The notes under the pieces are model-generated. The model was not told where the DNA came from and did not search any database. It saw only the letters and a list, made by a program, of their open reading frames with translations. DNA of 63,028 bases, the filler included, from Reticulomyxa filosa (lineage: Eukaryota > Protista > Foraminifera): the NCBI GenBank assembly GCA_000512085.1. It is 17 parts of 17 records of this genome, joined end to end, with 100 filler letters (N's around TTAATTAATTAA, not from the genome) between each part and the next. Parts side by side here need not be neighbours in the genome. Positions count along the whole stretch, not along the records: positions 1 to 8,828 come from ASPP01006162.1; positions 8,929 to 19,824 come from ASPP01005852.1; positions 19,925 to 22,176 come from ASPP01020897.1; positions 22,277 to 26,603 come from ASPP01023736.1; positions 26,704 to 28,048 come from ASPP01011193.1; positions 28,149 to 29,702 come from ASPP01023322.1; positions 29,803 to 32,198 come from ASPP01011917.1; positions 32,299 to 33,534 come from ASPP01021145.1; 9 more parts are not named here. One strand, given 5' to 3'. Position numbers and translations under genes: made by a program. Of the stretch, positions 1 to 47,574 are shown piece after piece; within the stretch, counting starts at the first letter, position 1; every line of letters starts with the position of its first letter.

Positions 1-2952
1 TGCAATGACAATGACAAGCAAGACAAAGGAAAGGTAAATAAAAAAGATGAAGAAGAAGATGATGATACGCATGATAATGAAGCGAATAACGATACCGCAA
101 AGCCAACTGCAGATGGGACATCCGCCAAAGAAAAAAAGTCGGCAAAAGGCAAAGAGGAAGCAAAAGAACAAACGAAAAAAACAGCTGCCAAGAAAGTGAC
201 AAAAGAAGATGAAGAAGAGAATGACGGGGATAATAATAATAATAATAATAATAATAAGAATGAAGAGGAAGAAAAAGATGATGATGGCGATGAACATGAT
301 AATAAAGAGATAGTAACGTCTGCAAGCAAAAAGAGAGAAAGCAAGGAGTTGGTCGAAAACAACAGCAATCCTCCTCCTTTGGCCAATGCTATGAAAAAAA
401 TTGCAGTTGAAAAGAATACTACGAAAACACATGAAATGAGAAAGCGATTGAGCACGAGCCTCATTCAGCCTGTTTTGAAAACAGATGACAATAACGCCTC
501 CAACAACGACGATAATGAAAAAAAAGAAGCGCGAAATCGAATTGACAAAGGCAAATACTTGGAAAAACTTCAAGCGAAAAGAGATGAGGAATTGCGTTTT
601 TTGAAAGAGTTGCAAAACAGACAACACCCATTCAATGGCTTGGAAAGCATTTCCCAATACAAAGAAAACTACGAATTAAAATTCATTGATACCGGCATTG
701 ATGGCAAAATTACACCTTTGCCTGGTTTTCTCCATTTAATTCTCTTTTTTTTTTTTTTTTTTTTTTAATTATCATAATATATATATATGCATATGTACAC
801 ATACATTCACTTATTAAATTTCTTGATTTTTTTTTTTTTTTTGTGTAAAGTGTTTTGGAAGTGCATGTTTTACCATCAACGGGGAGAAGAGTGGCAATTT
901 GAAGAGTTTGAAAACGAAGATGAAAATAAAGAGGAAATGATCGCGGAAGCTTGGAAAAACAACACCTTACGGGCATTCATTCCGACCTATGAAGAAACGG
1001 AAAACACGGCCGAAGAGGCCAATGAAGACGAAGAAGAGGAGGAGGAGAAGGACGAGGACGACGACGAAGACGGAAACGAAAATGAAAAAAAACACAAAGG
1101 CAGGAGTGGTGAAGGCGAGGAGTTACTGGAACTGCCTGAATTTGTTTACAATTTCACTGCGGTGAACGAATTGATGGAATATGTCGATTCAAAGTATTGG
1201 GGAGGTGTGGACGAAAGCGACAACATCAATGAAAGCGACACCCATGAAACGTTGTTTGTCTATCGCATTCGAAGATGGATGCCAAGCAATGAAAAAGAAG
1301 CCGAAGAAGCCATTCCATACGAGTCCCTGCCAGGAGACAAGCCTCGCCTAGAAACTGAAGGTGAAGCCACATTGGTTGATGATTTGGTGTGCATCCAAAA
1401 CAAGTCCTGTCTTGACAAGTTTCAAAATTATTTCTCTTCTCCTTTCTCCAAACAGTAAAAAAAAAAAAACAAAAACAAAAAGAGTCTTTATGGACGAATA
1501 CACAGACCCACTTGGCATCGGTGGTTGAAGGGTGGCAACAAAGGTTTGCGTTACATCCGAAAGAGTGGTTTAATCGACACCAAGTATCCAATCTGTGGCA
1601 AAGAAAATAACGGTACGATATTGGAAGGCGTGTGCCAAATTGGTGACTTTGTTATTGGCGCGTCCAGTGAATCTGCACAATCCAAGTATTCTATCTTGCG
1701 GTTGGATGCATTGGCTCCAGCACGTTAGTTTTTTTTTTATGTGCGTCCACATATGTGTATATGTTTATATATACGTATATGTATATGTGTTTTTGTAAAC
1801 AAAAAGTCATTCGATATGCAATGTTGACACCGCCGATTGTAAATTTGGGAAGTGGTGTCGTTCAATCGCTGATGACAACTGCCAGTGGTAGCGACTTGCC
1901 GTTAATTCGGGGCAATGGTTTGCTGTTCAACAACTTGCAACAGTATTTGACATTAGGTGGCCCGCAGACTACTGTCAAGATCGATTTACAGACGGTTTTG
2001 CACCAACATAAAAAATATAATGCCAAAGGTGCCTCGCAACTCCCTGATGTTTGGACATTGACTGTTTGCTTTTGCCATCCTGCACCTTCAGTTTTGTACT
2101 TTTCATTGTTTTGCATAAATACCCTTTGTGCTAGTGCAACACATCACACAGCCAACTTTGAGGCATCGAATAATAATACACAATAGTCCAATGATGCAGT
2201 GATATTATCAAAAAAGTTCCATTGAAATTGAAATTCAAAGTCGATTCACTATGGATGTCCACAACAACTATGTCTTCTCAGAGGAGTGGTTAATCATACG
2301 CTTATTCGATTCCTCTACCGAAAAACAGCAACGCAATCAACCAATCACGATTCGAAGCAAAATTCGAGTTTAACAATATTTGCTTAATACTTATTTGCGT
2401 GTGTGTGTGTGTATGTGTGTGCGCACAGCTAATATATGTATAAATTTTTGTGTCGATTTATAATAGAATAACTTTAGATCGTGGAGTTACAACATTGGGA
2501 CCCAACAGAAACAATGGGGACAAATGGAATTTGATAATAATACTTACTGCCTTATTCTAACAAAATTGGAGGGTAATTGTTTATTTGTTCTTCTTGTGTG
2601 CCCTTTTTTTTTGAATTATGTGTTTGCCTGAAATTCCTCAGATGGCTCCGTTCGTTGCATTTTGAACGGTAAGGAAGTGTTAATTGAAGAGGGCGACGAG
2701 TCAGAACCCGGAAGTACAAATTTGCTGAGCACCGCGCCATCCAAATTCTTATTTTTGGGACACAAATGTAAAAGTGGTGATAAAGGAATACCAATCAAAT
2801 TGTTCAATGGCCATCTCTTTGAGCTTTCATTGTATCCTTTTGTGTTCAGAGAGTTTGAGATTCGAAGTTATTGGTCCCAATGCAAAGCCCATCTTCAAAA
2901 ATATCTCAATGAACCCGAAATTTCTGATATGTTCACACATGCACTTTTGTGA
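1..2952 (+). CDS. Large multi-exon protein, 5' partial: acidic low-complexity N-terminus and possible LamG/concanavalin-like C-terminal domain
   Basis: ORFs 196-768, 787-1458, 1525-1728, 1755-2186 and 2662-2952 join in frame through GT-AG introns (725-850, 1387-1482, 1724-1806 and others). The C-terminus VRCILNGKEV...FLGHK...FNGHLFELSLYPFVF resembles LamG endings. Confidence 0.6.
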
Positions 2953-3305
2953 ACGCTTTTTGTGTATTGCCTGCATCTTTATTTGATTTTGTTATATGTT
3001 ACTAGACTTCATTTGTGATGTTTGTAAAGATTGACAGATATTCTGACATTTTATTGCGTTGATGCATTTTTTCCTTTCATTTGCTTTTTTTGTTGCGCAA
3101 ATAGTAAACTTTTTTTCGTAAGAGAGAAATCAATTCCAGTTCGGAATTTATTTCAAAGTCTTCATAGTAAAATTAACCTTGAAAGATAAGTTGAAAAGTT
3201 CATAAAAGAACATTTTCAACTTTGGAGACCTGCGCCTGTGTTGACAGTCGGAAATTAACTTGACTGGATTTTTGCAGCATTTCTTAAATTGGGAAAGCAA
3301 ACATC

Positions 3306-5755
3306 ATGTCCATTTTCAGCGAAGAACGCACAGCAAAGACGAGAAAGGCGCTATTGAAAGATTGCCCTCGCACCAAAAACATGTCACCAAACCAAACACA
3401 GCACAAATTGAGCCAAAAGGTGGCAATGAACAATATCTATTTGAAGCTCCAACAAAGAGAATATCCCTGCACCAACCTTAATACAAGCCAGGATAGATAC
3501 GTCAGAACAGTGGAGTTTCACAATTACAACTTGAAAGTTACTTGGTTATATCTGCTTTGTAACTGCATAATAAAAAAATTTTTCTTTGGTTTAACATTAG
3601 TGTAGGCATTTGCCAACATTTTTGAAAAAATTCATTTAAGTGAATTGGATTTACAAAGATTTCAGCAACCACGTCCAGAAATTATCGAATTGTTTTGTGC
3701 CGAAGACGTAATTATTTTGTTGACAAGGAATGGGCTGGGTGTTGCATTTGAAAGGAGTTTTGCATTTGTTTGATTTTTTTGTTGAAAAAAAAAAGAGAAA
3801 AGAAATAACGAAGAGTAGAAAAAGAAAAAAGACAGCAGCCAATCAACTATAAAAAAACCTCAAATTTCGATTGGGTGAATCTCCAAAAAAAAAAGAAGAT
3901 TAACAAAATGATGTGTGGAATGTTTGGGTGGCAAAGGAAATTTGGAAGTATTGTGCTATTTGAACACGGAAGTGCATCAACGCTTCAAAGCAGCTTATCA
4001 CAACAAGCAAGCTGGAGCTATTTTGACAGTTTCAATATTCGATGAGAGTCCGCAACACAGCAACGAGTTGTTTGTGCACAGTTTGTGTTTGGAGTTATGA
4101 TCACTAAGTGTAAAACAAAAGTAAAGAAATTTTTTTACGTGTTTTTATTTCTTTTTTTATTTTATTGTTTTTTGTTTTTTTGCCTGTTTATCATGTAATC
4201 AATAGACACGTTCGTAAACGTAAACCACAATTGGCGAAAAGAATTCTCTCTCAAGAACGCATTTTGCATCCAGGGTTTGTAGAGTTTGATGACAACAACG
4301 CCAAAATATTGACTTATAACGCAAATGACAAGTTACAAATTTTTTCATTTCCACACATATGTCAATTCCTCTTCTCTTCTTTTGCTGTTGTGCCTGTTTC
4401 GTGGTCGTGCTCTTTTCGGTTGTGAAAAAACAAACTCAAATTAATACATGGATTGGAGTTGATACCAATTGTAACAGATTTTATCGCATTTGGAATTGCA
4501 AAGATCACTCTCTGGCTTGTCAAATTCCAAACAATGATGGAAAAATTCAAGAAGTCAAGATCAGGTATTTCGTCATTTGTTTGTTTTTTTTTTGAAATTT
4601 GTTGTTGTGGTTGTTGTGCAGCTGCGGGGTTGCAGTGAAAATTTATGAGATTGGCAACAACGATAAGCATTTGAAGGTGGAATTGGCAAATGCAAACAAC
4701 GGCAAAGTTTTTTTTGAATTATTTTTTTTATTCTTTCTTGGTATTGTTGTACAAGAGACTAAAGACTAAAACTGAGTTTTTTTTGTATTGCAACGAGTCC
4801 TACCGCGTTGTCCATATTCCAATTCAATCTCAAGTGAAATGTGATTTTATTGAGTTGTTTGGAGATAAGCTGTTGCTTGGTCAAAAGGGGAAAAAATTGG
4901 TTGTTTTTGACGTTAAGAATGATTGTACTGTATGTGGGTGTCATTCAAAGAACAAGTTGTTGGTAACAGATGAGCCAGGACAAGATTGTTCGGGAATGTA
5001 AAAATTTTGTAATTCCAGAGGCATTTTTACATATCACTGATTCATCCAAATTGCTATTGGTGAAAAGTGGAAAGCTGTTTGTTCTGGACTTTATGACAGA
5101 CAGTGTGTTACAGTTTCGCATTTCTTTGTGTCTTGGCCTAGAATATGTTTATTGATCGTGATTCATTTGCTAACACAGGGTGGAAACAACGTCTGAATAT
5201 TCTCGACATGCAAGTGTTGGGTTGTTTGTCAGTTCAAATCAAGATACCTTGGCGACTTACTGTCGTCAAAAAATTGGAACGAAGCATATCGGTAACGCTT
5301 GTATTTTTTTTGTCTTATCCAATGCTACTTTACAAATATCACAAAAATTAGGATCAGTCAATCTAAATTGTTTGTCAACTGGAAAACTCCTTGGCAGTAT
5401 TCAATGTCCAATTGATGACACGAGAGTGTCTTGCAGCCCAATTTCAGAAAAAAAATTCAAAAACCAAATGAGTCCACCAAATCCATTGGGGTCGGTTTGT
5501 GGCGTATTCTACAATGAAATAATGAATGAAATCTACACTGGAAATACCAATGGATTCATTCATGTTTGGGGCGTTGCACCAGATACTAGTGAAGATTATT
5601 TGGTGAACAACAAATCACATGGTAGTTATGCTCCTTATCAACCCGAATCAAGTGAAGATGAATGGATTTTTCCGTATGAAATGGAAAGCACCAAAGATAC
5701 ACAAAAACAAATTGATGTCGACAATAAAGAAAATCAACAATTTTTTTCTCAATAA
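3306..5755 (+). CDS. Conserved eukaryotic beta-propeller-like protein of unknown function (PGFVEFDD family)
   Basis: Spliced product contains EIIELFCAEDVIILLTRNGLGVAF, LCYLN...YHNKQ, PGFVEFDDNNAKILTY, IQEVKI and FYNEIMNEIYTGNTNGFIHVW. These match a plant/protist family recalled as PGFVEFDDVNGKVLTY...EIYTGN. Confidence 0.7.
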
Positions 5756-8928: not shown

Positions 8929-9947
<1,019 letters not shown>

Positions 9948-13385: not shown

Positions 13386-14786
13386 ATGAAGGAGAAAGAA
13401 GCTCTGGGATTAGTATTAGCGACAGGAGCAGGTCTGTTAGCGCCATTTGGTGCGTTATTAGCGACCTTTATTCCGACAAGGCAGTTCCGAATGGTTCCAT
13501 TGGTATTGGGGTTCAGTGTGGGGATCTTGGTTTGGGTGTCTCTAGTAACAATGCATCCAGTAGCATTGCGAAATTTTGAAGAAGCTGCACAAGCACATTA
13601 CGGAGAAAATTGGCACGAGTCACATGGGTACATACCGAGGTTATACACAATGTTGAGTATAATGGGAGGATTGTTATTGGGTGTGATAATGGACAAAGTA
13701 GTGAAATGGATGGACAAAGAAGAAACTATCCCAAGAAGACCAAGGCTAAACACCAATGGCACACACACGACACAAAAATCAGGTTATCGAAAGGGGTCAG
13801 ATGATTCGAGTTCCTATCAATCCGGAGATAGCAACGCTAACAATCACTCGGTCCCAAAGGTACAAAAGCAATCCACCACAGATTGTAATGATGAAGATGG
13901 GGGCGAACTCCACCAATCCGAGTTGTGTGTGTTGTCCAATCACGCCATTGAAAGCATTGAATCTCAGGCCAAGCAAAATGGAAAACTGTCGGATCATTCC
14001 GAATTGCTTTCCAATAAACAAAGCAAAAATGAACCTCAATCTTATGGGACCGATCAACTTAACACTAATTTGCTGAGTTGGATTTTTTTGTTTTGTTTTG
14101 TTTCCGTCAATCAAAAAAAAAAAGTGTGTGTACGTGTAAAATATATGTATATAAAAAAAAAAAGAGGAAAATGAAGAAAAAGAAAATGAGGATAGTATAC
14201 CGCCATTGACAAGACAAGAGTCGCAACGTCTTCTTAATGCAATTGCTATTTCCATTTTTGCAGTTTGACACATACTTGTATGTTTTTTTTTAAAATGGCA
14301 AAGAAATGTTGTTTTTTTATTAAAAAAAAGGCTTCCATTGACAACTTCCCTGAAGGATTGGCAATATTTATGAGTACTGTAGACAAAGTAGATTTGGGGG
14401 TGCTTGTTGCAGTGGCGGTTGGAATCTACAATTTTCCAATGGGTGTGTCCACGTCGATGCCAATCTATATGATTAGCAAGGGGTCAATCACGGCGAGGCG
14501 GTGCAAGGCCATTGGAGCAGGGCTGGCTGTTGGCGTCCCAAACATTATTGGTGGGGTCGTTGGCTTCCTTATTTTGTCCTTGACCGAGAATGACACTGAA
14601 GTACTTGCTACCAATACTAAAGGCATTATGTTTGGAGTCATTGCAGGGCTAATGATCTGGACTGCTTGGAAAGAACTTTTACCCGAGTGTCGAATACACG
14701 ATTCTGACGATAAATATACCACGAAGCTTATTTTTGTCGGCTTTTTGGTTATGGATCTGTCATTGATACTGGTCGACAGTCTTTAG
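13386..14786 (+). CDS. ZIP/ZupT (GufA-like) metal transporter with degenerate metal-binding motifs
   Basis: 3 TMs, a long loop, then 5 TMs. Motifs DNFPEGLAIF, AVGIYNFPMG, GVIAGLMIWTAWKELLPE. Introns 14077-14164 and 14263-14330. Confidence 0.88.
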
Positions 14787-17015: not shown

Positions 17016-18909
17016 TTATTTACACAATTTAGTATCAAAGAGTAATTTGACATCAGTGATAGTCATATTTCTCCAAAGATCGTCTTTTCCAGACTGATGC
17101 AAGCCATACTTGTTGTTTGGATCGCTGTCTTTGTCATGAAATTCAACCTCACACATGGCTACACCTGCATTCATCAACTTTTTTTTCTTTAGTTGTTCCC
17201 ACAGCTCATTTTTGTCTTGAGAAGGTTGTAATTTCTCTCCATCGACTTCCTCATCTCCAGCAACGTCGACGTCTTCCTTTGTTTCCTTTTCATCTTTCGA
17301 CGCACTGACATTGGAAAGTTCGGACGTATCATTGCCGGACAGATATCTTTGGAAAAAGCCCCGAAAATATAACGAGTGTCCGACACAGACAACTACATCT
17401 TCATCGATATATCTCAAGTACTGAACCAAGTCATTGTAGCGTTGTATAAGCTCTTCCTTGTCGTCAAAGAAATCCGTCCTTTTTTTTTTTGCGACAAAGA
17501 AAAAAAAAAGGGGTTAAAAGTGCAAAAAAAAGGGGGGAGCAGACAACCATATTACAAAAACTAACCACCACTTTTCAGTGGCATCATTGTAATCGACCTG
17601 AATCGACTCGATTTTATCTTTCAAATCTGGGCATTCTGCGACCGTTTGTTTCGACACCCGTTCGAACAGTGCTTTCCCGGATACATCTGCTTTTGTATCC
17701 AGACCTATTCAACGCGTGTACACAACCCCCCCCCCACCGATCTCTTCGCAATTCATATTACTTACAACTTTGTAAGGGACTACCAAACAAACCTCCCAGA
17801 TTTTTCATTTCCCTCAAATTTCGCACCAACCGAATTCCTCGTGATGTTAGCGTTGGATGATCCATCAATGTTAGAATACACGTCTTTTATGATTTGTTCC
17901 CCCCCCCCCCCCTCTCCTCGTATACGTAGCTCGTCATGTACGGATTGTTTTTTTTTTTATAAATAATAATCGAAACAAAGAAGTTCAACTTGTGTTGCTC
18001 GACAAAGAGGCGAAGTCAAAATGACTTGGGCACTTAAAAACTTTTGCAATTCAGGAGTGCTTTCTTGTTCCGATTGCTGCTTTTTCCATTTCTTGTTCAG
18101 TTCCAACGCTTGATCAACTCCGTTTGCGTTCAATGGATGATCGCACCGTTTGTACATGTCAACCAAGTTTTTATCTTCTTGTGCTTGGTTCCAATATGAC
18201 TCGCCATGTCGTATCAAAATCAATGTTTTTTTCTTCAGCTCTCCGCCTTCATGTTTTTTCAATTGGACGTACAGTTTCGGTTCCGTTGTATGTTGGGACC
18301 TCTTTGACATCTTGTTTTCCCCAAAAGGAAACAAAAAAAAAAAGGTACAGTGTGTATACGTCAAATTTCATTTGTAAACATTTTTGCTATGTGCATGTAT
18401 GCGATTTTGCTTACATTCACTGGCAGTTCCAACACTTCGTTCAATTTTGCTGAACCTATTGATAGCGTACATTGTCCAATGAAGTCATCCGATCCCACGT
18501 CATCCTCGTCATATAATGTGAACAACAATGTGTCAGTTGCAGCTGCTCGCATGCGACGGTATGCGTGCCACACCGGATTTGGACAATCAGAGCGTGTCAA
18601 TGTACGGATGCCTTTGTCATTCTAAAATCCTCAACATTAACACCCTTTTGCTTTTCTTCTTTTTCACAAACGTTGCAATTAGCTTACGCACGTACATATA
18701 CATATAGAAATAACCTTTTCATATTTTGCCTCTTTTCCTTCCTCGTAATTTTCTAAAAGTCTTATAATCACATATGGATCTGATTCACTGGTAGGATCAA
18801 GCTTGGGGACGTTTTTGGCTTCAATCACATGTAGCACATAGTCTATGCGTTCTACGTTGTTTTTGTTTGTGTTTGTGTCAGAATCTTGCGTTGACGAACA
18901 ACAGCCCAT
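17016..18909 (-). CDS. N-acylated C2-domain + histidine phosphatase (PGM-like) fusion protein
   Basis: MGCCSS start. C2 motifs LHVIEAKNVPKLDPTSESDPYV and NPVW...LYDEDDVGSDDFIG. Phosphatase motifs LILIRHGESYWN, SPLCRATQT, LREM and VCVGHS. Exons join through GT-AG introns (e.g. 17479-17565). Confidence 0.85.
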
Positions 18910-19560: not shown

Positions 19561-19594
<34 letters not shown>

Positions 19595-21963: not shown

Positions 21964-22002
<39 letters not shown>

Positions 22003-22328: not shown

Positions 22329-23181
22329 AAACGGAAGCTGATCTTCCACATCAAGTGAAGCGAGACAACGAAAGCAGCGAGCCAGGGCCGGCATTGCGTA
22401 TGGACATGAAAAGAGACAGAATAAAAAGCAGAGGCAAACCAAAGATGGTGAAGACAAATGAGACGGAAAATGAAAGCGAAAGGCAAAAGAAGAAGCCAAT
22501 ACTAAAGCTTCGGCTGCAGAAAACCCCCCAAAAAAAAGAGACATTTGCAAGTGAAGCCATAAACGAAAGCAAAAAGAACAAAAACAAAAACAAAGATAAA
22601 GATAGGGACAAGGACAAGCAAAGAGAAAAGGAAAAAAAAGAAAGAAAAAAAGAAAAATTGCTGCCAACCCAACAATGCGTCGATGATCTTTCCAAGTGTG
22701 TTCTGTTTTATTGTTCAACTGTGTTTATCATTACTGCTGTTGAATATGATAATACATATACATATGCATACACATATATATGTATATATATATATATACC
22801 TAAATTATAATATGGTATATGCATATCAAATTATTTTAAAACCAAAAAAAAAAAAAAAAGTGTAAATGAAAAATATATGAGCGAGCAATTACGACAGTAT
22901 TTGAAAAATTTCACAAATGAAAAGTTACAACAAGACTTAAGTCTTTTGTTTACAAAGAAACCTCCAGCGATGCCAGAAAAAGTCGAAAAGATTACACCAG
23001 GTTAGAAGCTGACAAAATATTATGGCACAGACCGTTGGCCGCGTCCAGCTCTGAATATGAATACTTTGTTTTATGGAAAGTTTGGTTTCTCTCTTCTCTT
23101 TTATTTATTTCTTTATTATTATAATTATTATTATTATTTTTTTTTGGAGAAATCTCGAATTGTTGTATTCTTTTACTTTCC

Positions 23182-23226
<45 letters not shown>

Positions 23227-28293: not shown

Positions 28294-29652
28294 TTACAAC
28301 TCTTCGTTGAAAATGGCGGACATGTTCAAACGAACATATGGTCTTTCATAAGCCATGAGTTGGGGTTGTCCAGAAACGTAAATTTGGGCATTGCTGACAT
28401 ACATGAATTGGTTTAAGTAGTCATACACAGCGACGTGCATATCTCCCGTTTGCAATCGTGCAGCGGCTTGTTGGAACAAGTATTTAGCGTCAATGTTTCC
28501 CCATCCTTCGTTTAAGACATTTCCGAGACATGGATCACTGGATGGTTGTACGTGTTTGTCAACATAGATTACATCTTCGATATAAGGATGAGCTGTATAC
28601 GTCGGATAAGATGTACTGTTGTATGGGGTCAGTGATTCATAGCTGTATTCGACAATGTCCATTTGGTCAGAGGTACTATCTCCAACACCCACAAAAATGC
28701 TGCACGTGCGGTCCGTTGTGTTCATTCTGTTGATTGCATCTTCCTTGGTTTTGTCGAATTGCAAGATATCTCTTAATACAAATGTAAATGGCGTGCCGCG
28801 ACGACTATTCCCCATATTTTTATCAATTTGCATTTCAATAACTTACATATCGCTTATATCACAATACACAAGCGCACACACATATATAAATATATTATGT
28901 ATACAAACCTGTCTTTTCCGTCATAGCTAATCCACACCTTCTCACAAATGCCGACTTGAGCATTGCTAAAGCCAGTGATTGCACCTACCAAGCCAGCCCA
29001 GCCTATCACACAATATCAATTCACATCTCTTTTTTTTTTTTTTTTTGTAATTAAAAACAAAAGAATAATAATAATAAAAAAAGCAATGATGACTAAACTG
29101 ACAACAGAAAACGGATGTCCACCATCAGTAGGATGATACACTAACACAACAGGGAATTGTTGAAAAGGGCCATTTGTGTCCCAATCCAATGCTCTCAACT
29201 GTGGTCACAACAGCCATGTTTATTTTCAAAACAATAATAATAATAATAATAAATATACATATATATAATATATTATATATATGTATATATTTATTATTAT
29301 TATTATTATTATTATCCGACGTTTGAATGAACAAAACAAAAAAAGCAATCACACTTGAACAAGGGTATAGCCTTCAGGAGTCGCTTGGTCCCATGCACCG
29401 ACCATTGAGCAGCTGGCCTTGATTGCCTCAGGAATCATTGCCACCTTTGTTTGCAAAAAAAGTGAATCAATCAATTGAACATCACACACCACCAAACAGA
29501 CCAATCAAAACAAAGCAAAACAAAACTTGATAGATTTGTTCGTAAGGAACACCACTGCCTTCGGCAATACCTTTCATTTCCTCAATGTATCGCTCTGGGA
29601 TATGTGGACGAGCCAATGCCCAAACGTAATCCAAAATTATTGTCACTCCTTC
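28294..29652 (-). CDS. Ntn-hydrolase (peptidase C45 / acid-ceramidase-like, Dictyostelium Dcd1-like), 5' partial
   Basis: EEMKGIAEGSG, KASCSMVGAW (candidate nucleophile Cys), LRALDW, WAGLVGAITG, FVLRDILQF, RTCSIFVGVG, TGDMHVAVYD. Five exons joined by GT-AG introns. Confidence 0.8.
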
Positions 29653-29657
29653 CTATT

Positions 29658-29691
<34 letters not shown>

Positions 29692-30283
29692 CCAAAAAAA
29701 AANNNNNNNNNNNNNNNNNNNNNNNNNNNNNNNNNNNNNNNNNNNNTTAATTAATTAANNNNNNNNNNNNNNNNNNNNNNNNNNNNNNNNNNNNNNNNNN
29801 NNCCCCACTGGGTCCTCCCGAGTTCAAGCCTTTAGAATAGGGACTTGTACTACATGTAGTATCAAGATTGTTTGCTGTATTCTTTCAGCTGCAGATAAAT
29901 ATAAATTGGTTTGTAAAGCCGATAAAATGTAAAACTAAACAGATATAGTTGAAAGAAGAGAAATTTCATTAAAAGAGTATAGATATGAAAAGAGCATCGT
30001 TTGTAACAAAAAAGATAGGGAAAAAAAAATAATAGTAGTAATAATAATAATGATAATTAAAAGTAGGACAGCATTGCCCTTCTCGACACATTGACAAAAT
30101 GGATTATTACGAGACAAGCAAAAAAGCAAAAAATAAAACAAAAAGAGGAAGTCAGAATGAAGAATTCTGAAAATGTGATAATGCAGTCGATCTCAGTGTA
30201 GACAGGATTGAAGAATGAACTGAAACATTGATATTATAACAAAAAAAAAAAAAAAGTAATAAAAAATAAAAAGTATTGCGCGT

Positions 30284-31275
30284 TCACATTTGATTAGTTT
30301 TGTTCGTCATTCCAGCAGTGGTCATGAGAAGCATAGGTTTATTTAGTGTGGTGGATCTGCGCTTTCGATCGTGTTGTGTATAAAGAAGCTGTTGCTCTCG
30401 ACGAAGATGGCGCACGTGTAGACAGAAAGCGCAGAAGGTGTATTGAAGACACGAGCCAAGTCCAAAGAGTAAGCTGACAAAGACAAGGATCCAGAACGAG
30501 TGTATACCGGGCTTGGTCATGGCCACAATGGTAATGGCCGCGGAGCAACACAAAGCCAAGTTCAGTTGTAACTCCTTGACTCTGGTCCTAAGCTGAACGG
30601 GAACGTTGCCCGCTATCATTCTGGACTGCACTATTTCAAATGCAACCACGCCACTGCGCGACAATATCATGCATCCGAGTATGACAAATGAGTTTTCTCT
30701 CGTCGAGTTCAATATATCTCTGTTCAGCACTCTTTCCACAAAAAAGTTTGCTCCGCTCGGACACAAGCATAGCCAACTCAACCACAGCACAATGCTCCCA
30801 TTCACTCCCAATGTCCACTGTATTTGGTCGAACATATAACTACCCATCCAATTGCCCGTCACGCCGAATACTGCTGCACAAGCCTTTCCAATGCCTTTCA
30901 CATTAACATGTATATGTAATAATGTTAAGGTTAATGTTATTTGCTGTTTGCGATTTTTCGGTTGGAGAGAAAAAAAAAAAAAAAAAAAAAAAAGAAAATT
31001 GCTAACCCAACCAAAAAGGAGAAATGCCATTGCACTTCAAATATGCGATGGACAAGGTCCCCACGTCCAACACGGTGACATGGACTAGGGCATAGGCAAG
31101 ACAACCCCAGACGATGGATGTGCTCCCAGCACAGTAGAGGACCGCCTCGAACATGGGCGGGCCAAACAATTGTTCGTTTGTGACCAAGAGTGGGTCCCAT
31201 TGACCCGAATGGTCTGCGTCATTTTGATGGGTTGCATTGGATGTGGTCAATTCATTTCCATTGTAATGTCTACCC

Positions 31276-32122: not shown

Positions 32123-32408
32123 CTTTTTTTTATTTTATTTTTTTTTTTTAATTTCAGTGTCAACTTTCTCTCATCAAACTATTTTTTTTTTTTTTTTTNN
32201 NNNNNNNNNNNNNNNNNNNNNNNNNNNNNNNNNNNNNNNNNNTTAATTAATTAANNNNNNNNNNNNNNNNNNNNNNNNNNNNNNNNNNNNNNNNNNNNTT
32301 TGGTAGACCAGTCGTCAACCTTGCAACGTATACTTTTTATTTTTTTATTTTTTTTTTGGAAACACAGCACGCAAGACAACAATAAACAAAAAAAAAAAAA
32401 AAAAAAAC

Positions 32409-33229
32409 TTCGATGATAGCGCATGTGATGACTCAAGTTGTGACGATTGTTGAACACTTTGTTACATTCTCTGCACTCGTATTTCCGCACAGTCATTGGA
32501 CTGGTATTGGCATCAGCGGAGGTGGACGTAGAAGTTGAGATGGAAGTCGGGGTAGAACTGGAACTGGAACCAGAACCAGAAGAGATGAAAGCCGACGTGG
32601 GATTTGGGCAAGGTGTGGTCTCACATTTGATACTGCCCGAGCTCTCTTCACCGCTTTGTGGCAACGGCGGCTGAAACAATAAAAATTGCTTGCCAAACGA
32701 ATTGTCCATTAGCGTCATGCCTTCCATTTTTGCGCTGTCAAATCCGTCTTTTGAAGTGTCATTAGGGTCCATCTGGAATTGTCCTTTTTTTTTTTTTTTT
32801 TTGTAGATAATGTGAAAATTAACACATTATGCAAACAAGAGACAAGATGAAATGAGGAAGAACAAAAAAAAACAAAAAAAAAAACCGATCCTTCCTTCAA
32901 TTGATTGTCCATCTTTTAGAAAAGGGAAGGAAAGAGGGGAGGGAATGAATTTGAAAGAAAGTAACGAAGCAAGCAAAAAAAAAAAAGGGGGGGGGGGGGA
33001 AACCTTGAGGTGGTAGGACGATATCAGGTGGAATGGAAGGAAAGTTTCCGGCACTCGAACAGGTGTCCGTTTGGACTTTGCTCTTCTTGTCGTGGTCTTG
33101 GACGAACACAATGTGAGTGACGTCTTTTTCATTGCCACTGGACAGCTGTGGCATCCAAGGCAGCGGCACGAAGCTATTGTGCGACTGAGACAACTGCTGA
33201 CACCAAGGGCCCAATAGTGGGGCCGTCAT
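32409..33229 (-). CDS. C2H2 zinc-finger protein, 3' truncated
   Basis: YECRECNKVFNNRHNLSHHMRYH finger preceded by an S/T-rich region. Upstream exons can be joined in phase 1. Confidence 0.8.
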
Positions 33230-34854: not shown

Positions 34855-37800
34855 ATGAGCCTGTCAAGTGAGCCAGATCATGAACATTTGATGACAGGCA
34901 ATAGTGCCTTTGACTTTCGAGATCGTCAACAGACGTTTGATTCTTCAAACATTAACTTTGGGAACTACAATGATATCCTAACTCAGCCCGTGAAGAAGTT
35001 GCTTTCTAATCACGCGGAAATCCAACCGTCCTCAGATCAAAAACCTGTGAAAAAGTCGAAACAGGAAGGCACAAAAAAATCAGGGAAAACGCCTCCACCT
35101 CAATCATCTTCACAAACAACCTCTGCCGTCCAATTGGCAGTACCAAGACCCAACGACAAAGTTTCTTTTTTTTTCCCTTTTCCCTTTATGCGTGATGTCC
35201 TAAGAATAAACGATTCAAAGAAACAACAAAAAGAACGTATACGCTTGGTTGTCTTGCAACGGAATTGATATTAGATATACAGTGCAACAGCACCATCTTC
35301 ACCTCGAAGCCAAGAAAATATCGAATTATCCTTGTATCTTTACTCTTTTGTTTTTTTGAATGTGAAAAGAAATGAGAATAAATGTTGTGCATTGCATATA
35401 GTGAAGACAATGAAGATGACAAAGTGGGAAAGTGGGTGAAAGGACGACGACACACGATTCACGATTTACAACAAAAAGGCGTTTTGTCGGAATTTCTTGT
35501 GCCAGTGATGGTATGATTGACACGCAAAAAACCTACCAATACACCGCCTTTATGTCCACCTCCCCTTGCACCACTATGTGCATCACAACATGATATCAGT
35601 TACAAATTTGTGTTTATTTGTGTGTGTTGAATATATCTCGACCCCTATCATAGAAAGGCGATGAGGAGTCAGTCACTCGTATAAGTTAATTGTGCTTTGC
35701 AAGAAAGGAAGAGAAGAAAGGGGGGAGCATGTAATGTGCCAACATTGTTGACAGCAGAAAAACATCCAATGATATACAAACAACAAAACAGCACAGACAA
35801 ATGAGAATGAATGGATGAAAGACGATTTGTTTTACATACACAGCCATCACACGACACACGCAATAAGAGAGCAGCGTGCAAAGACCTTTGTGGATAAAGA
35901 CAATCCTGCAAGCAGCGATAACGGAAGCAGCAGTGGCTGGAATGGGTCGAATGGACAAGACCTATCTGGCTATTACAATATCGCCGAAAATATTGACGGT
36001 GGCATTTTGAGTAATTGGATTTTCTTGCCTTTCAACCAATGGTGCAATGCAAACATTGAGTTCCATACAAGTCAGGCGGATCAATTGTTGAATCAAATGA
36101 AGAAAGAATCACAAAACCTAACTTCGAAGGTATCTGTTTGCTCGCTGTGCTTGCTTTTGTCCTTATTCGAAACGACAACAGCCACTGTTCTTTTTTTTTT
36201 TGGAACAACACCGACGACAGGCAAAAACAGATGATGACATTATCATCACAAATAAGTCCCAACCAAAGGTAATGGCCAATGCACAACTGTCCTACATCGA
36301 TGGACAACTATCTCTCGAGGGCGAGAAATTGAGAAACTTATTGAAAGTTCAAGGACACGTCAAGTCCATTCAAGCACAATTTGATACATTTATCGACAGC
36401 TTGCGTCAACGACAAATTGAAATACTTGAGCTGTCCAAAGAGCTGAAAGAGCGCCACCAAATATGCACTCAAACATTGCAATGTTTGTCCGATCACGAAA
36501 TATGGCTAGTCCAAAACATTGCCGACACCATTGCCGAAAGGGCCGAAAAAATCGATCGTATGAACAAACGATTGAAACAACACGCTACTGGCCATGAACA
36601 AAAAACAACTGAGACTCAAGGCAAGCCACTTGAAGATAGGGACTCGGTCGAGGCTGAATTGATGCATACAAGGGCATTTGTTGATCATTTGCATCAAGTC
36701 ATTGTGGAATTGCAGCAAATTAATGATAACAAAAGACAGGAAGTCAATGCAATAAAAAATGATATCGAGATTTTACGCGCCCAAAATGTCAAAATTGGCG
36801 AGGCGTCGTCCAACGCTGCAGTCATTGCCATGGAACGTTTGTTTGGGGTGCAATCTCATTATCAAATGCCAACTTTAGTCAAAGTAGGTTAAGGTTGTTT
36901 GCTTCTTTTTAGAAAGAAAATGTTTGGAATATGTTTTTTTTAAAAAAAAAAAGGGGGCAACCGAGGTCACACTAAGAAGTCAATCAATATTGCAATCCAT
37001 GGATACATATCTGTCCAATGCCGTTTCACGAGATGCCTATTCCAGAGCAATGGAACTTTGGCAATGCTGTGTAATATTCAGTAACAATCGCAATAAAACT
37101 TTTTTTAATGAGTACGTTTCTCTTTGCGTTCAAGCTTTTGTTGATGCTTCATTGGCCAGGGATTATATTCTTTCGAGCTCTGCTTCGAAAAAAGGTATTT
37201 GCCTTTTTTTTCTTTGGAAGAAAGGGGAAAAAAAATTGAAAATCGAAACAAAAAATCAGACTTTGGCAAAAAAGAAAACAAATGGCTTCCATTGGGAGGT
37301 CGACTAATGCACACCACTCGCACAAGTATGACGGAACATGATTTGCCAGTCATGACAAACATTTTCAAAGAATCAGAAAAAATGTTTGAACTAATTAAGC
37401 AATCTCAAAAACTTGGGTTCAAAGGATTGGACTTACTGATGAATCTATCAGAGGTATGCTGCCGAGAAATCAATCACGATGCTGACTATAAAGAAAACAA
37501 GGAAACTTACAATCCGGCAGTTCGGCCATTCATGACGTCACATTATCTCTCTGGAAAATGTGTCGTTCACGTCAACGACAATGAACCGGTCAACAAACAA
37601 ATAGAAACTCAAAAAACTCATCTTGACAATTTGCTTGACAGAGTCTTTATATTTGCAAAATATGGAGACAAAATCCATAATTTGGAAACAGTATTGTCGT
37701 GTGTTGGACAGTATGTTACTTTGCAGTTCCAGCATGGTTAAAACTGTATTTTTATACCATTTCATTGTCTTTGTAAACTCTATTCATTTGTCACTACAAT

Positions 37801-38006
37801 CAATAGATATTCATTGCCAGCAGTCAACTAAAGAATTGACTAAATTAGTAAACGAGCACTGTTCAATCTTGCTTTCGACAATGCTGTGCACTTGGAAGGA
37901 CCCAAAAGGAGTGATGCAATTGATGAATCAGAGCAATGATAACAATGTTTATCGAATTGCTGCACAGATCCTATTCAAAGTGTACTCTATTGCTGATTAT
38001 TGTTAA
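34855..38006 (+). CDS. Large multi-exon coiled-coil/helical protein of unknown function
   Basis: ORFs 34810, 35815, 36200, 36924, 37199 and 37623 can be joined by introns (e.g. 36884-36953, 37195-37259). The 5' exon structure is uncertain. Confidence 0.55.
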
Positions 38007-38359
38007 GATTTAAGGAGTCTTACTTGATTTTTTTTTCGTTGTTTGGATGTGTTTTTTGAAGAAAAACATCTTTGTTGGTATCTTGTAAAGGAAGAAATTA
38101 TGCCGATGCATAATTTTTATTTTTTTGGCAAAGATCTTGTTTGATTTCATAGAATTCGCTAAAAACTAATTTTTTGCTACTAATGATCTAACGAACAGAA
38201 ACGTTTCAACCAAACTCATTTTTTATGCAATATAAAGGCTGAATGCTGCTGGCAAATGTATATTGATTTTAAATTGGAAACAAAGCATTAAACAACCAAA
38301 CACACCAATTTCCACAAAAACGTCGTCTTCCTGAAATAAAACACCTTGTTTTTTAATTT

Positions 38360-40123
38360 TCAAAATTGCGATTTTCTATAACTGTACAAAGAGTGCACAT
38401 TTCCTTCTTTTTGTGCGGCCTGCGTTCTCACTTCAAATCTAATGTCACCTTTTTCGCGTAAGGTCTTCACTTCACTAAGTCTTTGGACTCCCAAATCTTG
38501 AAAGCCATGTTTCACTCCTTGCACAATATAAGGAACAAACTTACGAATTGGACCACGATCAACCACCGTTCCGCTCACGCCCTGAGCGACACGGATCTTT
38601 CCTCGTTCCGTGAAATAACGGTCGTCACTTCCTTTTTTCATTGCTTCTAAACTACCCATTCCTCGATATGTCTTCAATTTTATACCATCTTGATTCACAT
38701 ACTCTCCAGGAGACTCTTCGCATCCAGCCAACAGAGACCCCATCATCGCTGTCGAGGCGCCTGAGATAAAAGAGTGCTGATTTGAAAACCAAATCAGAAA
38801 GCATAACAAATTAAACAATACCTAAGACGAGAGCACGCACAACATGACCACTACTTTGAATCCCTCCATCAGCACAAACAGGAACACCAAACCGGGACGC
38901 ATATTTGGCAACATTGTACACAGCTGACGCTTGAGGACGACCACAAGCAGTGACTTCTTGAGTGGTGCAAATACTTCCACTGCCCATCCCTACACGCAAT
39001 CCATCAACTCCAGCTTCAATTAAGTGCTTTGCCTGTAACGTTGTAACGACATTGCCACCAACAACATCCAATTTTGGGTATGTCTTTTTAACGAACTTGA
39101 TCATTTCGATCTGGTAAATGGAGTCTCCTTGACTGGAATCAATTACCACAACGTCCACACCAGCTGAGAGGATATGTTTATATAGTATCCAATCTTTTCG
39201 GATATACACATATCGAAATCAAAATAAAAACTAACCTTCAACCAAAGCTCGTAATCTTTCCTTGTCAGTTTCTCTAGTGCCAATGGCTGCGCCTACCCGT
39301 AAACGTTTTCTTTCGTCTTTGGTGGACAGAGGATAATCACTATTTTTGAGTAAGTCAGTTCGACTCATTAATCCAACTAATTGTTGTTGGTCATTCACGA
39401 GTGGCAGCTTGCCTTTTTTGCTCCGGATCAAAATCTGATTGCATTCTTCAATGCTTTGTGTGTTCTTGGCAACCACCAAGTCTTTCCAAGGAGTCATGAT
39501 GTCTTTCACCAATGTTTTTCGGTTATCAATAAAGTGAATGTCACGACTACTCACAATACCGACTAATTTTCCATTCATTTGTCCGTCCTCTGTGATTGGG
39601 ACCCCGCTGAAACCAAAGCGGTTTTTTATTGCATCCACGTCTGCTACTGTCGAATCTGGTTTTAATACCATTGGATTTATTATGAATCCGTTTTCGTAGC
39701 GTTTAACCAATTTTACCTAGTTATGATTGTTGTTTATTATTTTTGTGCGATACCCCGTTTGAAAAAATTTGCTTCAACGACACATCCATGCATTTCTGTC
39801 TCACTGCATTTAACTTCATGGGCTTGTTCTTCAACTTTCATGTTGTAATGAATAATCCCCAGCCCTCCTTGTAAAGCCATCTGGATTGCCATGCTATGTT
39901 CAGTCACAGTGTCCATTGGAGATGAGATTAGTGGTGTTTTGACTGCGATGTTTCTTGAAAATTTTGAAGTCAAGGTGACTTCATCCGTTGAAAAACCTAT
40001 GTGTCCCGGAAGTAATATCAAATCATCATATGTATAACCAAATCTATCTTCAAATAAGTCCTTGGCACTCAAACCATCACGAAAATCATCGTTCGCTACC
40101 TCTTCTTTTTGTTCTTGCGTCAT
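38360..40123 (-). CDS. IMPDH: Inosine-5'-monophosphate dehydrogenase (complete, 4 exons)
   Basis: [22 protein letters not shown] pair, [17 protein letters not shown] (catalytic Cys), ADGGI, YRGMGS, VAQGVSG. Three GT-AG introns restore the frame. Confidence 0.98.
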
Positions 40124-42356: not shown

Positions 42357-43375
42357 ATGACACAGTTGCACATCACAAAGCCATTGACAATCTTTGTCAC
42401 AGGCTGTTCTCGAGGTTTAGGTTTGGAATTCGTGAAACAGCTGCTGACAAAGCAAAAAGATTCGTTGGTGATTGCGACCTGTAGAGAGCCAAGTAAAGCC
42501 GAAGATTTGCAAAAGCTGAAAGAAGGCTACTCAAAGAGATTGCACGTGGTACCTTTGGACGTGAGTGACGAAAAATCGATTGAAAAAGTGCCCCATGTAT
42601 TGTCAAAAGATCTGGGGATATCTTCGATTGATTGGTTGATTAATAATGCGGGCTAGTTATTTTTTTTTTGTCTGGTACAAAAAAAAAAATAAAAGATTTA
42701 ACAAAATTAACATATTCGAATCCATATCTAATATATAGGTATCGCGTCAGATAAAGCATCCGTTAGAAAATATAACAAGTGTTGACAGTGACAGCATGAT
42801 CAAGTCTTAAGAAAAGCATATGTTACTTTTTATGTGGGAGATTTTTTGGGACTAATGCTCCCTTGAACATTAAAGAAAAAAAAAAAAAAAAAAAAAAAAA
42901 TTGTTAAAGGGTGTATCGTACTAACGTGATAGGACCAATATTGATAAGTGATGCATTGATTCCATATTTAACACACGACCTATCAAAGAGAGATTACATT
43001 CCTCGTATCGTTAATCTTTCCTCTTTGCTTGGAAGTATTACCACTTTCCAGAGTATCAAACACAACGCTGATGCCTCTGTTCTGAGTGCGCCTTCTTATC
43101 GTTGCAGCAAGGCCGCGTTGAATATGTTAACACAATGCATCGACAAAGATCTTAATGACAAAATTCAACGTACATATTCGGACTCGAAAAAAGGTGTTAT
43201 TGTTATAGCCTGTAGTCCTGGATGGGTTGTAACAGATATGGGGACTGTTGGTGGTCGAAAACCACCATTGACATCTGAGCAATCCATCCAAGGCATGTTA
43301 TCTGTTATTGAAAATGTCAAATTGGATGACAGTGGAAAATTTTTTTCTTTTGATGGTAAAACCTTGCCTTGGTGA
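42357..43375 (+). CDS. Short-chain dehydrogenase/reductase, C-factor (CsgA)/sniffer-like
   Basis: TGCSRGLG, LDV, LINNAG, NLSSLLGS, YRCSK, PGWVVTDMG and the ending DGKTLPW. Introns 42652-42738 (GC-AG) and 42804-42909. Extra A at about 42753-42755. Confidence 0.93.

Positions 43376-44254: not shown

Positions 44255-44257
<3 letters not shown>
43664..44257 (+). CDS. ANKRD13-family ankyrin repeat protein, 3' truncated
   Basis: YPLHAAV...DHHGYTALTLSV...LLEHGA...GWTSIQEAVS is the ANKRD13 N-terminal pattern. Confidence 0.78.
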
Positions 44258-44296
<39 letters not shown>

Positions 44297-46929: not shown

Positions 46930-47457
46930 TCAATCACGATTTTGTTTAAGGGAGACAATTTCCTGTGAGCGTATGAGCGTGGCATACATTCCACCCAATC
47001 CCATTAAATCTTGATGGGTTCCAATTTCGTCCAATCTGCCATCAACCAAAACACAAATTTGATCACTCTTAGTGATTGTGGATAACCTGTGAGCGATAGT
47101 GATAATGGTATGACTCTTGTTTTTGGCGATATTATCAAGAGCTTTTTGGACCTCCCTTTCTGATTTGGTATCGAGGGCGCTGGTTGCTTCATCAAGCAGT
47201 AAAATGCTTGGTTTTTTCACCAACGCACGAGCAATGCTAATTCTCTGCTTTTGGCCACCACTCAAACGTCCGCCCATTGCACCAACCTTGGTTTTGTATC
47301 CGTCAGACAACTGAGAGATAAATTCGTGAGCGTCGGCCAGCTTGCAAGCCTCAACGACATCTTCAGAGGTCACTTTTTCGAGTCCGGCGCGTACATTTTC
47401 TTCGATTGTGGTATCAAATAGCAAAGGCATTTGAGAGACGTAGCCAATTTGGGAGCG
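46930..47457 (-). CDS. ABCB (MDR/P-glycoprotein-type) transporter nucleotide-binding domain, last exon
   Basis: IGYVSQ, LSGGQKQRISIARAL, LLLDEATSALD, IAHRLST. Confidence 0.92.
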   Translation of the reverse strand, partial: RSQIGYVSQMPLLFDTTIEENVRAGLEKVTSEDVVEACKLADAHEFISQLSDGYKTKVGAMGGRLSGGQKQRISIARALVKKPSILLLDEATSALDTKSEREVQKALDNIAKNKSHTIITIAHRLSTITKSDQICVLVDGRLDEIGTHQDLMGLGGMYATLIRSQEIVSLKQNRD

Positions 47458-47574
47458 CTTTTTTTTTTTTTTTTNNNNNNNNNNNNNNNNNNNNNNNNNN
47501 NNNNNNNNNNNNNNNNNNTTAATTAATTAANNNNNNNNNNNNNNNNNNNNNNNNNNNNNNNNNNNNNNNNNNNN

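What the first reader, a model, noticed from the sequence alone, without database searches (positions are those of the whole stretch)
725..47458. Inverted intron polarity: pyrimidine runs after the donor, poly-A/purine runs before the acceptor AG
Seen: many frame-restoring introns end in an A-run abutting AG (1482, 1806, 14164, 14330, 20901, 22860, 23227, 36953; minus-strand acceptors at 17479, 32123, 32784, 47458). T/C runs sit just after the donor (1724, 14077, 31006, 32408, 37195, 42652, and 44258 where G is followed by an unbroken T run to the contig end). Sense-strand G-runs also fall in 3' halves (plus-strand C-runs near 17726, 17899, 58028). Established: canonical U2-type introns have a polypyrimidine tract before AG, read by U2AF. 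Inference: this lineage may define introns differently, e.g. by U-rich 5' recognition, U:A pairing that brings the ends together, or a divergent U2AF. The pattern is a tendency, not universal: the IMPDH acceptors are ordinary and the HisRS intron has a 5' A-run.
Basis: partly seen in the sequence, partly recalled or inferred. Interest (0 to 1): 0.8.

Follow-up and report, generated by a model that had tools for sequence, protein, structure and literature searches.

The report
Foraminiferan introns with reversed U/A polarity
The short introns of this foraminiferan (Reticulomyxa filosa) carry their U-rich tract just after a degenerate start site and lack the usual pyrimidine tract at their end, which is often A-rich, so the standard splicing machine likely recognises them mainly from the start side; each half of this pattern is known elsewhere, and pairing between the two ends is not supported.

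Summary
Real, but more ordinary than proposed. The window is Reticulomyxa filosa. All 19 cited coordinates hold. Of 51 introns placed (19 by homology), the 5' end is more pyrimidine-rich than the 3' end in 44 of 51, 18 of 19 and 16 of 16 genes; intergenic DNA shows no such polarity. The solid parts are a U-rich tract at +7..+26 (57% T), U-rich donors (T at +3 in 33 of 51; GTRAG once), A at -4 (34 of 51) and near absence of a 3' tract (2 of 51). A-runs abutting AG are a minority (9 of 51; 2 of 19 homology-fixed, not significant). U:A bridging is not supported. A published table already lists 52% purine-rich acceptors for this species, second of 154 protist rows; 5' tracts are widespread in eukaryotes; GUUU donors are known in Entamoeba. 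Likely mechanism: U2-type intron definition weighted to the 5' side, relaxed 3' constraint, slippage-grown A-runs. No RNA, lariat or spliceosome data were available. The scan noted the same grammar before in Bonamia (unchecked). New variant of a known kind.

The parts
3757..3936 (+). intron B2 (DUF7899 gene), homology-fixed
   Evidence: Pfam PF25463 offsets run 68, (69), 70 across the junction
9309..9392 (+). intron MAPK1, GC donor; acceptor fixed, donor inferred from frame
   Evidence: PDB MAP kinase alignments; open frame
14263..14330 (+). intron ZIP2, ends in A8-G
   Evidence: gapless alignment to 12 ZIP homologues
17884..17989 (-). intron C2P3, G14 run then purine-rich acceptor
   Evidence: stop-bracketed acceptor with no alternative AG; histidine phosphatase profile
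18622..18714 (-). intron C2P1
   Evidence: C2 profile on both sides; stop-bracketed acceptor; a second in-phase donor lies 27 bases on
21423..21530 (+). intron H3, long 5' pyrimidine tract
   Evidence: creatine kinase alignment ends at the donor; no alternative AG
23080..23227 (+). intron CHD2, T31 then A11-G
   Evidence: human CHD1 chromodomain alignment fixes the junction
23978..24081 (+). intron CHD3, purine-rich acceptor
   Evidence: SNF2 profile both sides; stop-bracketed, no alternative AG
28805..28908 (-). intron D4, purine-rich acceptor
   Evidence: gapless alignment to P0003 (87% identical) and six more
29003..29098 (-). intron D3, internal A17-G not used as acceptor
29199..29354 (-). 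intron D2
29445..29526 (-). intron D1
30895..31006 (-). intron F1, T24 after the donor
   Evidence: ferroportin profile offsets continuous, 293, (294), 295
38761..38821 (-). intron IMP3, the most tract-like homology-fixed acceptor (Y 0.73)
   Evidence: TIGR01302 offsets continuous
39164..39235 (-). intron IMP2
   Evidence: TIGR01302 offsets continuous
39717..39814 (-). intron IMP1, no 5' tract, A-rich acceptor
   Evidence: TIGR01302 offsets 75 then 76
42652..42738 (+). intron SDR1, GC donor followed by T10
   Evidence: SDR profiles end at the donor codon; stop-bracketed acceptor
42804..42909 (+). intron SDR2, A25 ending 10 bases before the end
   Evidence: PDB 3wxb alignment starts at the acceptor; stop-bracketed
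58021..58156 (-). intron HIS1, the one homology-fixed counter-example (5' A15, 3' G15)
   Evidence: human HisRS residues 222 then 223
14077..14164 (+). intron ZIP1, ends in A11-G; frame-only call
   Evidence: open frame; no upstream alternative AG
17479..17565 (-). intron C2P5, ends in A11-G; frame-only call
20812..20901 (+). intron H1, ends in A17-G; frame-only, a tract-bearing alternative AG exists
22696..22860 (+). intron CHD1, ends in A16-G; frame-only call
32784..32885 (-). intron E3, T11 at the donor and A18-G at the end; the one clear end-to-end U:A fold
36884..36953 (+). intron K6, ends in A11-G; frame-only, tract-bearing alternative AGs exist
55730..55861 (+). intron EXO, T17 after donor, A11-G at end; frame-only call
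725..2641 (+). five frame-only introns of the first gene (725-850 with an ordinary 3' T16 tract, 1419-1484, 1724-1806, 2368-2466, 2573-2641)
   Evidence: open frames; no homologue
3537..5351 (+). eight further introns of the DUF7899 gene (3537-3605, 4085-4205, 4332-4477, 4565-4621, 4707-4797, 4930-4984, 5113-5178, 5292-5351)
   Evidence: open frame; profile offsets consistent within a few residues
6320..9852 (+). frame-only introns 6320-6362, 6497-6556 and 9710-9852
17705..18414 (-). frame-only introns 17705-17792 (G10 run) and 18311-18414
21083..21199 (+). frame-only intron H2
32913..33003 (-). frame-only intron E2, pyrimidine-rich throughout
35161..37806 (+). frame-only introns 35161-35274, 35334-35401, 36130-36220, 37195-37259, 37737-37806
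   Evidence: 35334-35401 is followed by an unresolved stop
29653..29702 (-). 3' end of an intron cut by the contig end: A33 then CAATAG
   Evidence: alignment to P0003 fixes the acceptor
47458..47474 (-). 3' end of an intron cut by the contig end: A16-G before an ABC domain exon
   Evidence: ABC profiles start at the exon's first residues; no alternative AG
32123..32198 (-). A-rich 3' end of an intron cut by the contig end (not fixed by homology)
32299..32408 (-). donor followed by an unbroken T run; acceptor not placed
44258..44296 (+). donor G followed by T38 to the contig end
45695..45774 (-). citrate synthase donor followed by T-rich sequence to the contig end

Best explanation
These are short GT(GC)-AG introns of Reticulomyxa filosa with a U-rich tract just after the donor and almost never a pyrimidine tract before the acceptor, and they are likely removed by the ordinary major (U2-type) spliceosome working across the intron with recognition weighted to the 5' side. 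Shown: degenerate U-rich donors, a tract anchored at +7..+26 whatever the intron length, A at -4, no 3' tract, no detectable branch consensus. Inferred: the tract helps U1 bind the weak donor, through a TIA-1/Nam8/UBP1-type protein or a U1 with a changed pairing region as in Entamoeba; the acceptor is taken as an early AHAG after a degenerate branch point without needing U2AF65 to bind a tract; freed from that constraint the last bases drift to the A-rich make-up seen before other exon starts, and replication slippage grows the A's into runs in about one intron in six.
For: T 57% at +7..+26 against 41% over the intron interior, rotation p<0.0002 in both tiers; the tract falls to about 35% T by +37 in all three length classes; T after donors exceeds T after stop codons, 57% vs 40%, p 0.0004. 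T at +3 in 33 of 51 and 15 of 19, GTRAG in 1 of 51, two GC donors. Y>=0.8 before the acceptor in 2 of 51, 0 of 19. A at -4 in 34 of 51 and 13 of 19 (p 0.003). 24 of 51 acceptors purine-rich by the published definition, against 31,807 of 60,647 (52.4%) annotated R. filosa acceptors (PMC6339879 Table S3). Only 6,244 of 50,607 annotated introns score as plain 'major' and no minor snRNA was found (PMC11347168 Tables S4, S7). 5' tracts act through TIA proteins in other eukaryotes (PMC2766253 passages); fission yeast splices without a 3' tract (PMC8624252 passages).
Against: No junction is confirmed by RNA, and no U1, U2, U2AF, SF1 or TIA-like gene was examined. Weak donors are only marginally more often followed by a strong tract (rho -0.24, p 0.10). 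Some introns have no 5' tract (IMP1, SDR2, HIS1). T also exceeds A after stop codons (14 of 19), so part of the 5' skew is generic. PMC2766253 found no TIA homologue in the two protozoa it examined. No branch motif was enriched over all 51 introns (YTRAY 20 vs 16.7, p 0.18; 10 of 19 vs 5.8, p 0.018 uncorrected in the fixed set), so the acceptor step is unexplained. The published 52% rests on a gene-prediction annotation that disagrees with my model in 8 of 9 introns of the one gene compared.
Confidence: 0.5

Rival explanations
1. The A-rich end is a positive signal: a changed U2AF (or another factor) reads A-rich sequence before AG, so the grammar is truly inverted at both ends.
For: A rises towards AG (47% at -13..-4, 67% at -4); 9 of 22 intronic A-runs of 7 or more end exactly at the acceptor, above a 3'-half rotation null (9 vs 2.1); the published matrix of the purine-rich class shows A climbing to 73% at -4 (a class selected for purines); an earlier scan note reports the same in Bonamia (unchecked).
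Against: Not significant in the 19 homology-fixed introns apart from -4; 5 of 14 A-runs followed by G are not used as acceptors; A before start codons is similar (p 0.60); 27 of 51 acceptors are not purine-rich.
Confidence: 0.2
2. The polarity is a by-product of DNA-level forces (nucleosome borders, mutation bias, slippage) that make sequence T-rich after any exon and A-rich before any exon; T-first/A-last reads the same on both strands, so it need not be an RNA signal.
For: T>A after 14 of 19 stop codons, A>T before 7 of 12 start codons; first 30 bases T>A in 8 of 11 intergenic stretches; oriented poly dA/dT next to ORFs is reported in Plasmodium (PMC4194402 passages); the window is full of homopolymers.
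Against: Intergenic stretches have no pyrimidine polarity (mean -0.02 vs 0.25, p 0.003); the donor tract is stronger than the post-stop skew (p 0.0004) and stops at a fixed distance from the donor; +3 T and -4 A are position-specific.
Confidence: 0.2
3. The U-rich start pairs with the A-rich end and bridges the splice sites, as (AC)m-(GT)n repeats do in fish.
For: Single introns fold that way (E3: 19 end-to-end pairs, z -4.1); 9 of 51 have z<-2 and the mean z is -0.66; precedent in PMC4691745 (passages).
Against: Own 5'/3' duplex -5.18 vs -5.33 kcal/mol permuted (p 0.63, n 48); end-to-end pairs 3.7 vs 4.4 in half-shuffled controls; T-runs and A-runs do not co-occur (Fisher p 0.22; Spearman 0.22, p 0.12); folding is weak, -0.12 kcal/mol per base. 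Pairing would not explain why U comes first.
Confidence: 0.05
4. Artefact of wrong intron calls or homopolymer sequencing errors.
For: 32 of 51 introns rest on frame alone and were placed by eye; four frameshifts at short runs suggest run-length errors; the public model differs from mine; at least three tract-bearing acceptors were left out because their introns could not be placed.
Against: The polarity holds in 18 of 19 homology-fixed introns and with runs capped at 4; only 5 of 53 acceptors have a frame-compatible tract-bearing alternative and homology excludes it for CHD2.
Confidence: 0.05

Closest known systems
Purine-rich 3' splice sites / REPA class (Nguyen and Xie 2019, PMC6339879)
   Same: No tract next to AG; this species is in the paper's tables with 52.4% purine-rich acceptors, and my set gives 24 of 51.
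   Different: The paper's main text does not name the species (0 occurrences), treats G tracts and alternative exons, and says nothing of the 5' side. Here the purine is A and the class is half of all introns. The ciliate Ichthyophthirius (54.3%), Entamoeba invadens (44.7%) and Dictyostelium discoideum (34.2%) are similar; the rhizarians Plasmodiophora (10.6%) and Bigelowiella (11.6%) are not.
5' polypyrimidine tracts bound by TIA-1/TIAR, Nam8, Pub1, UBP1 (Gal-Mark 2009, PMC2766253)
   Same: Tract centred about 15-25 bases after the donor, next to weak donors.
   Different: There it is a second tract in 20-40% of introns; here 26 of 51 have Y>=0.8 at +7..+21 and it is usually the only tract. 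The binding protein is unknown here.
Entamoeba GUUUGU donors with a co-evolved U1 (bioRxiv 10.1101/2022.06.08.495308)
   Same: U at +3 and +4, U at +7, many purine-rich acceptors.
   Different: Entamoeba donors are strict (about 88% GUUUGU) with a fixed branch point in an intron-poor genome; here donors are degenerate (23 different first 5-mers in 51), the genome is intron-rich, no branch consensus was found and U1 was not examined.
Fission-yeast/fungal introns with the tract upstream of the branch point (PMC8624252)
   Same: Short introns, tract absent from the acceptor, intron definition.
   Different: Fungi compensate with a clear branch consensus (PMC3033335 passages); none was detected here.
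Fish (AC)m-(GT)n bridged, U2AF2-independent introns (Lin 2016, PMC4691745)
   Same: Complementary low-complexity sequence at opposite intron ends, no tract.
   Different: Co-occurrence in the same intron and strong end-to-end folding, which define that class, are not met here.

Membership tests
U2-type spliceosomal introns | GT-AG or GC-AG ends whose removal restores a conserved protein | tested here: met
   49 GT and 2 GC donors, 51 AG acceptors; 19 junctions fixed by homology
U2-type spliceosomal introns | Not U12-type (no GTATCCTT/ATATCCTT donor with U12 branch site) | tested here: met
   Donor 5-mers listed; two begin GTATC but continue TT and TG; no minor snRNA reported for the species (PMC11347168 Table S7). 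The U12 motifs are recalled.
U2-type spliceosomal introns | Donor pairing with standard U1 (GURAGU) | tested here: not met
   GTRAG in 1 of 51, purine at +3 in 17 of 51; degenerate donors are tolerated in this family, so this marks a variant, not exclusion
U2-type spliceosomal introns | Branch point consensus near the 3' end | tested here: inconclusive
   No motif enriched over dinucleotide shuffles in 51 introns; weak signal in 19
U2-type spliceosomal introns | Removal in vivo by U1/U2 spliceosome through a lariat | not testable with these tools
   No RNA run was listed; no snRNA in the window
Animal-type U2AF65-dependent acceptor | Pyrimidine tract directly before YAG | tested here: not met
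   Y>=0.8 in 2 of 51, 0 of 19; -3 is A in 21 of 51
TIA-1/Nam8-assisted introns | U-rich tract within about 25 bases after a weak donor | tested here: met
TIA-1/Nam8-assisted introns | TIA-like protein present and bound; tract needed for splicing | not testable with these tools
   No genome held; needs CLIP or minigenes
Structure-bridged (AC/GT-like) introns | Complementary repeats co-occur across the same intron | tested here: not met
   Fisher p 0.22; own-pair duplex p 0.63
Structure-bridged (AC/GT-like) introns | Strong hairpin joining the two ends | tested here: not met
   End-to-end pairs 3.7 vs 4.4 in controls; E3 is a single exception
Entamoeba-type transformed donor | Strict GUUUGU and a U1 with complementary change | tested here: inconclusive
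   GTTTG in 5 of 51, GTTT in 18 of 51: not strict; U1 not testable

The most novel reading that the evidence does not exclude
Foraminifera, perhaps together with ascetosporean parasites such as Bonamia, run an intron-rich genome on a rewired early spliceosome: a U1 or U1-helper that reads GUUU plus a U tract, and a U2AF that has lost U-tract binding or reads A-rich acceptors, with no branch consensus. That would be a lineage-wide inverted intron grammar within Rhizaria, absent from Plasmodiophora and Bigelowiella.
Probability: 0.2. Interest if true: 0.7.

Novelty: new variant of a known kind. Interest (0 to 1): 0.42.

Why it matters
It shows an intron-rich eukaryote whose introns have weak donors, no 3' tract and no visible branch consensus, which raises the testable question of where the recognition information lies and whether U1 or U2AF co-evolved. 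Practically, gene finders trained on standard grammar likely misread foraminiferan genes: the public model of the one gene compared translates 60 or more bases of 5 of the 9 introns in my model.

Tried and rejected
No genome held. No RNA holder was listed for 33635-41458 (not evidence either way), so no reads were laid. Homologue search with 17016-17477 found none. The one metagenome scan gave 40 loci, 39 at 31-42% and one at 62% identity; by the listing none looked like intron-bearing foraminiferan DNA and I did not open them. Rfam found 0 families in the window. U:A bridging tested three ways and rejected. Branch motifs: nine patterns, none enriched in 51 introns. T-runs starting at the donor's own T are not enriched (2 vs 3.5), so the 5' tract is not slippage of the GT. 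AG depletion before the acceptor (25 vs 86 expected) is not used as evidence because AG is also scarce further upstream (27 in 36 introns) and acceptors were chosen partly as first compatible AG. Left out before counting because donor or phase could not be placed: introns near 2090-2210, 12300-12350, 19480-19620, 21885-22020, 35500-35870, and lone acceptors near 33263(-), 50145(-) and 52832; at least three of these (T34 before AG near 22002, 33263, 50145) have ordinary pyrimidine tracts and count against the pattern. B3's donor was moved from 4070 to 4085 after profile offsets, and B2 and F1 joined the fixed set then (17 became 19). Not seen: Fig. 2 and supplements of PMC10245619 (R. filosa spliceosome inventory), file 2 of PMC6339879's supplements, supplements of the Entamoeba preprint; these may bear on U2AF presence and on prior description.
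Full report
What the window is. It is 17 contigs joined by N-padded spacers, about 35% GC and rich in homopolymers (78 A-runs and 77 T-runs of 8 or more). An exon at 4204-4332 is identical to a public protein named RFI_07884 of the foraminiferan Reticulomyxa filosa, on a contig of the same length as the window's first contig. No whole genome was held and no RNA run was listed, so introns were placed from homology and reading frame.

Intron set. I placed 51 whole introns in 16 genes (43-180 bases, median about 90) and six half introns cut by contig ends or unplaced partners. Removing them gives open frames, with one unresolved stop after intron 35334-35401. Nineteen are fixed by outside evidence of differing strength: gapless alignment to homologues (D1-D4 with an 87% identical relative, ZIP2), continuous profile offsets (IMP1-3, B2, F1), PDB alignments (HIS1, CHD2, MAPK1, H3, SDR2), or profile support plus an acceptor bracketed by a stop (CHD3, SDR1, C2P1, C2P3). 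Thirty-two rest on frame alone and were placed by eye. Several introns that could not be placed were left out; at least three of their acceptors carry ordinary tracts (see Tried and rejected).

The observation. All 19 cited sites are as described. Eleven intergenic stretches show no such polarity (4 higher, 6 lower, 1 tied; p 0.003 against introns).

The two ends differ in strength. The 5' side is solid: 57% T at +7..+26 against 41% in the interior (rotation p<0.0002 in both tiers), stronger than after stop codons (40%, p 0.0004), and ending near +37 in short, middle and long introns. Donors are themselves U-rich and degenerate: T at +3 in 33 of 51 (15 of 19), GTRAG once, two GC donors. On the 3' side the solid facts are the missing tract (Y>=0.8 in 2 of 51, 0 of 19) and A at -4 (34 of 51; 13 of 19, p 0.003). 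General A-richness of the last ten bases (47%) and A-runs of 8 or more abutting AG (9 of 51 against 1.35-2.1 expected) are significant overall but not among the fixed introns (37% vs 35%; 2 of 19, p 0.11-0.15), and A before start codons is similar (40%, p 0.60). Five of the seven frame-only A-run acceptors have no upstream alternative AG, and the ABC acceptor is fixed by homology, so A-run acceptors are real but a minority; 5 of 14 intronic A-runs followed by G are not used. No branch motif was enriched over all 51.

Mechanism. U:A bridging fails three tests: an intron's own ends pair no better than ends of other introns (p 0.63), end-to-end pairs are no more than in half-shuffled controls, and T-runs and A-runs do not co-occur (p 0.22); mean folding z is -0.66 with 9 of 51 below -2, and E3 does fold end to end. 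I therefore favour ordinary U2-type splicing across a short intron with the information on the 5' side (0.5): a U-rich tract that likely helps U1 onto a weak donor, an acceptor taken without a tract, and A-runs that likely grow by slippage where nothing forbids them. The protein and snRNA steps are inferred, not shown. Rivals are a positive A-rich signal read by a changed U2AF (0.2), DNA-level composition bias around exons (0.2; T-first/A-last is the same on both strands, and T exceeds A after 14 of 19 stops), bridging (0.05) and artefact (0.05).

What is known. Nguyen and Xie 2019 (PMC6339879; passages, section 5, Table S1 part 1 and rows, Table S3 parts 16-18 read) list R. filosa with 31,807 of 60,647 annotated acceptors purine-rich (52.4%), second of 154 protist rows after Ichthyophthirius (54.3%), against a protist mean of 14%; Plasmodiophora and Bigelowiella have 10.6% and 11.6%. 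My set gives 24 of 51 by their rule. The main text never names the species. The figure rests on an annotation that shares both ends with my model in 1 of 9 introns of the one gene compared. Olthof 2024 (PMC11347168; passages and table rows) scores 6,244 of 50,607 R. filosa introns as plain major and finds no minor snRNA. 5' tracts are enriched in almost all of 22 eukaryotes (PMC2766253, passages); fission yeast often lacks a 3' tract (PMC8624252, passages; PMC3033335, passages); GUUUGU donors with a changed U1 occur in Entamoeba (10.1101/2022.06.08.495308, passages); repeat-bridged introns occur in fish (PMC4691745, passages). Passages of PMC11069148, PMC13746701 and PMC10245619 (also its section 7) on rhizarian genomes do not describe this grammar; PMC4194402 (passages) was read for the DNA-level rival. 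Searches found no paper describing the combined pattern in foraminifera; the library lacks most subscription papers, and the R. filosa genome paper was seen only as a citation.

Verdict. A real, lineage-typical intron grammar whose two halves are each known elsewhere and whose 3' half is already in a published table for this species; the combination and the U-rich degenerate donor appear undescribed in what I could search. New variant of a known kind; interest 0.42.

Noticed in passing
window 26704-28048: GC-rich contig with two intronless ABC-transporter ATPase frames (Pfam ABC_tran); looks like bacterial contamination in the assembly.
   Followed up: partly
window 3306-5755 (+): The public protein RFI_07884 (646 aa) shares both ends with my model in 1 of 9 introns and translates 60 or more bases of five of them; the annotation likely misreads this genome's introns.
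   Followed up: yes
window 9309 and 42652 (+): Two GC donors among 51 introns (2 of 19 fixed ones), more than the under 1% usual in other genomes (usual rate recalled; 0.2% in the rhizarian Lemnamoeba); small sample.
   Followed up: partly
window about 9672, 23001, 42757 (+) and 57835 (-): Four apparent frameshifts at short base runs inside conserved genes (MAP kinase, CHD, SDR, HisRS), likely sequencing errors; many contigs also end in long A or T runs.
   Followed up: no
window 23080-23227, 36884-36953, 14263-14330 (+): A T-run meets an A-run just before AG; the T-to-A junction could act as a degenerate branch site. Untested idea.
   Followed up: no
window 17016-18909 (-): Myristoylation-like N-terminus, C2 domain and histidine phosphatase domain in one protein; no homologue found for its last exon.
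   Followed up: partly
window 20145-22176 (+): Long low-complexity protein with a lone ATP:guanido phosphotransferase N-terminal domain; the contig ends before any catalytic domain.
   Followed up: no
window 33263-33380 (-): About 110 bases of almost pure pyrimidine before an AG at the 5' end of a zinc-finger gene, an ordinary strong tract unlike most acceptors; a 5' UTR intron or possibly a trans-splicing acceptor.
   Followed up: no
window 45752-46294 (-): Citrate synthase of bacterial type I (TIGR01798, NF004126 best) with an N-terminal extension and an intron, in a eukaryote.
   Followed up: no
window 48880-49577 (-) and 52815-53714 (+): Two WD40-repeat genes in AT-rich, gene-poor contigs.
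   Followed up: no
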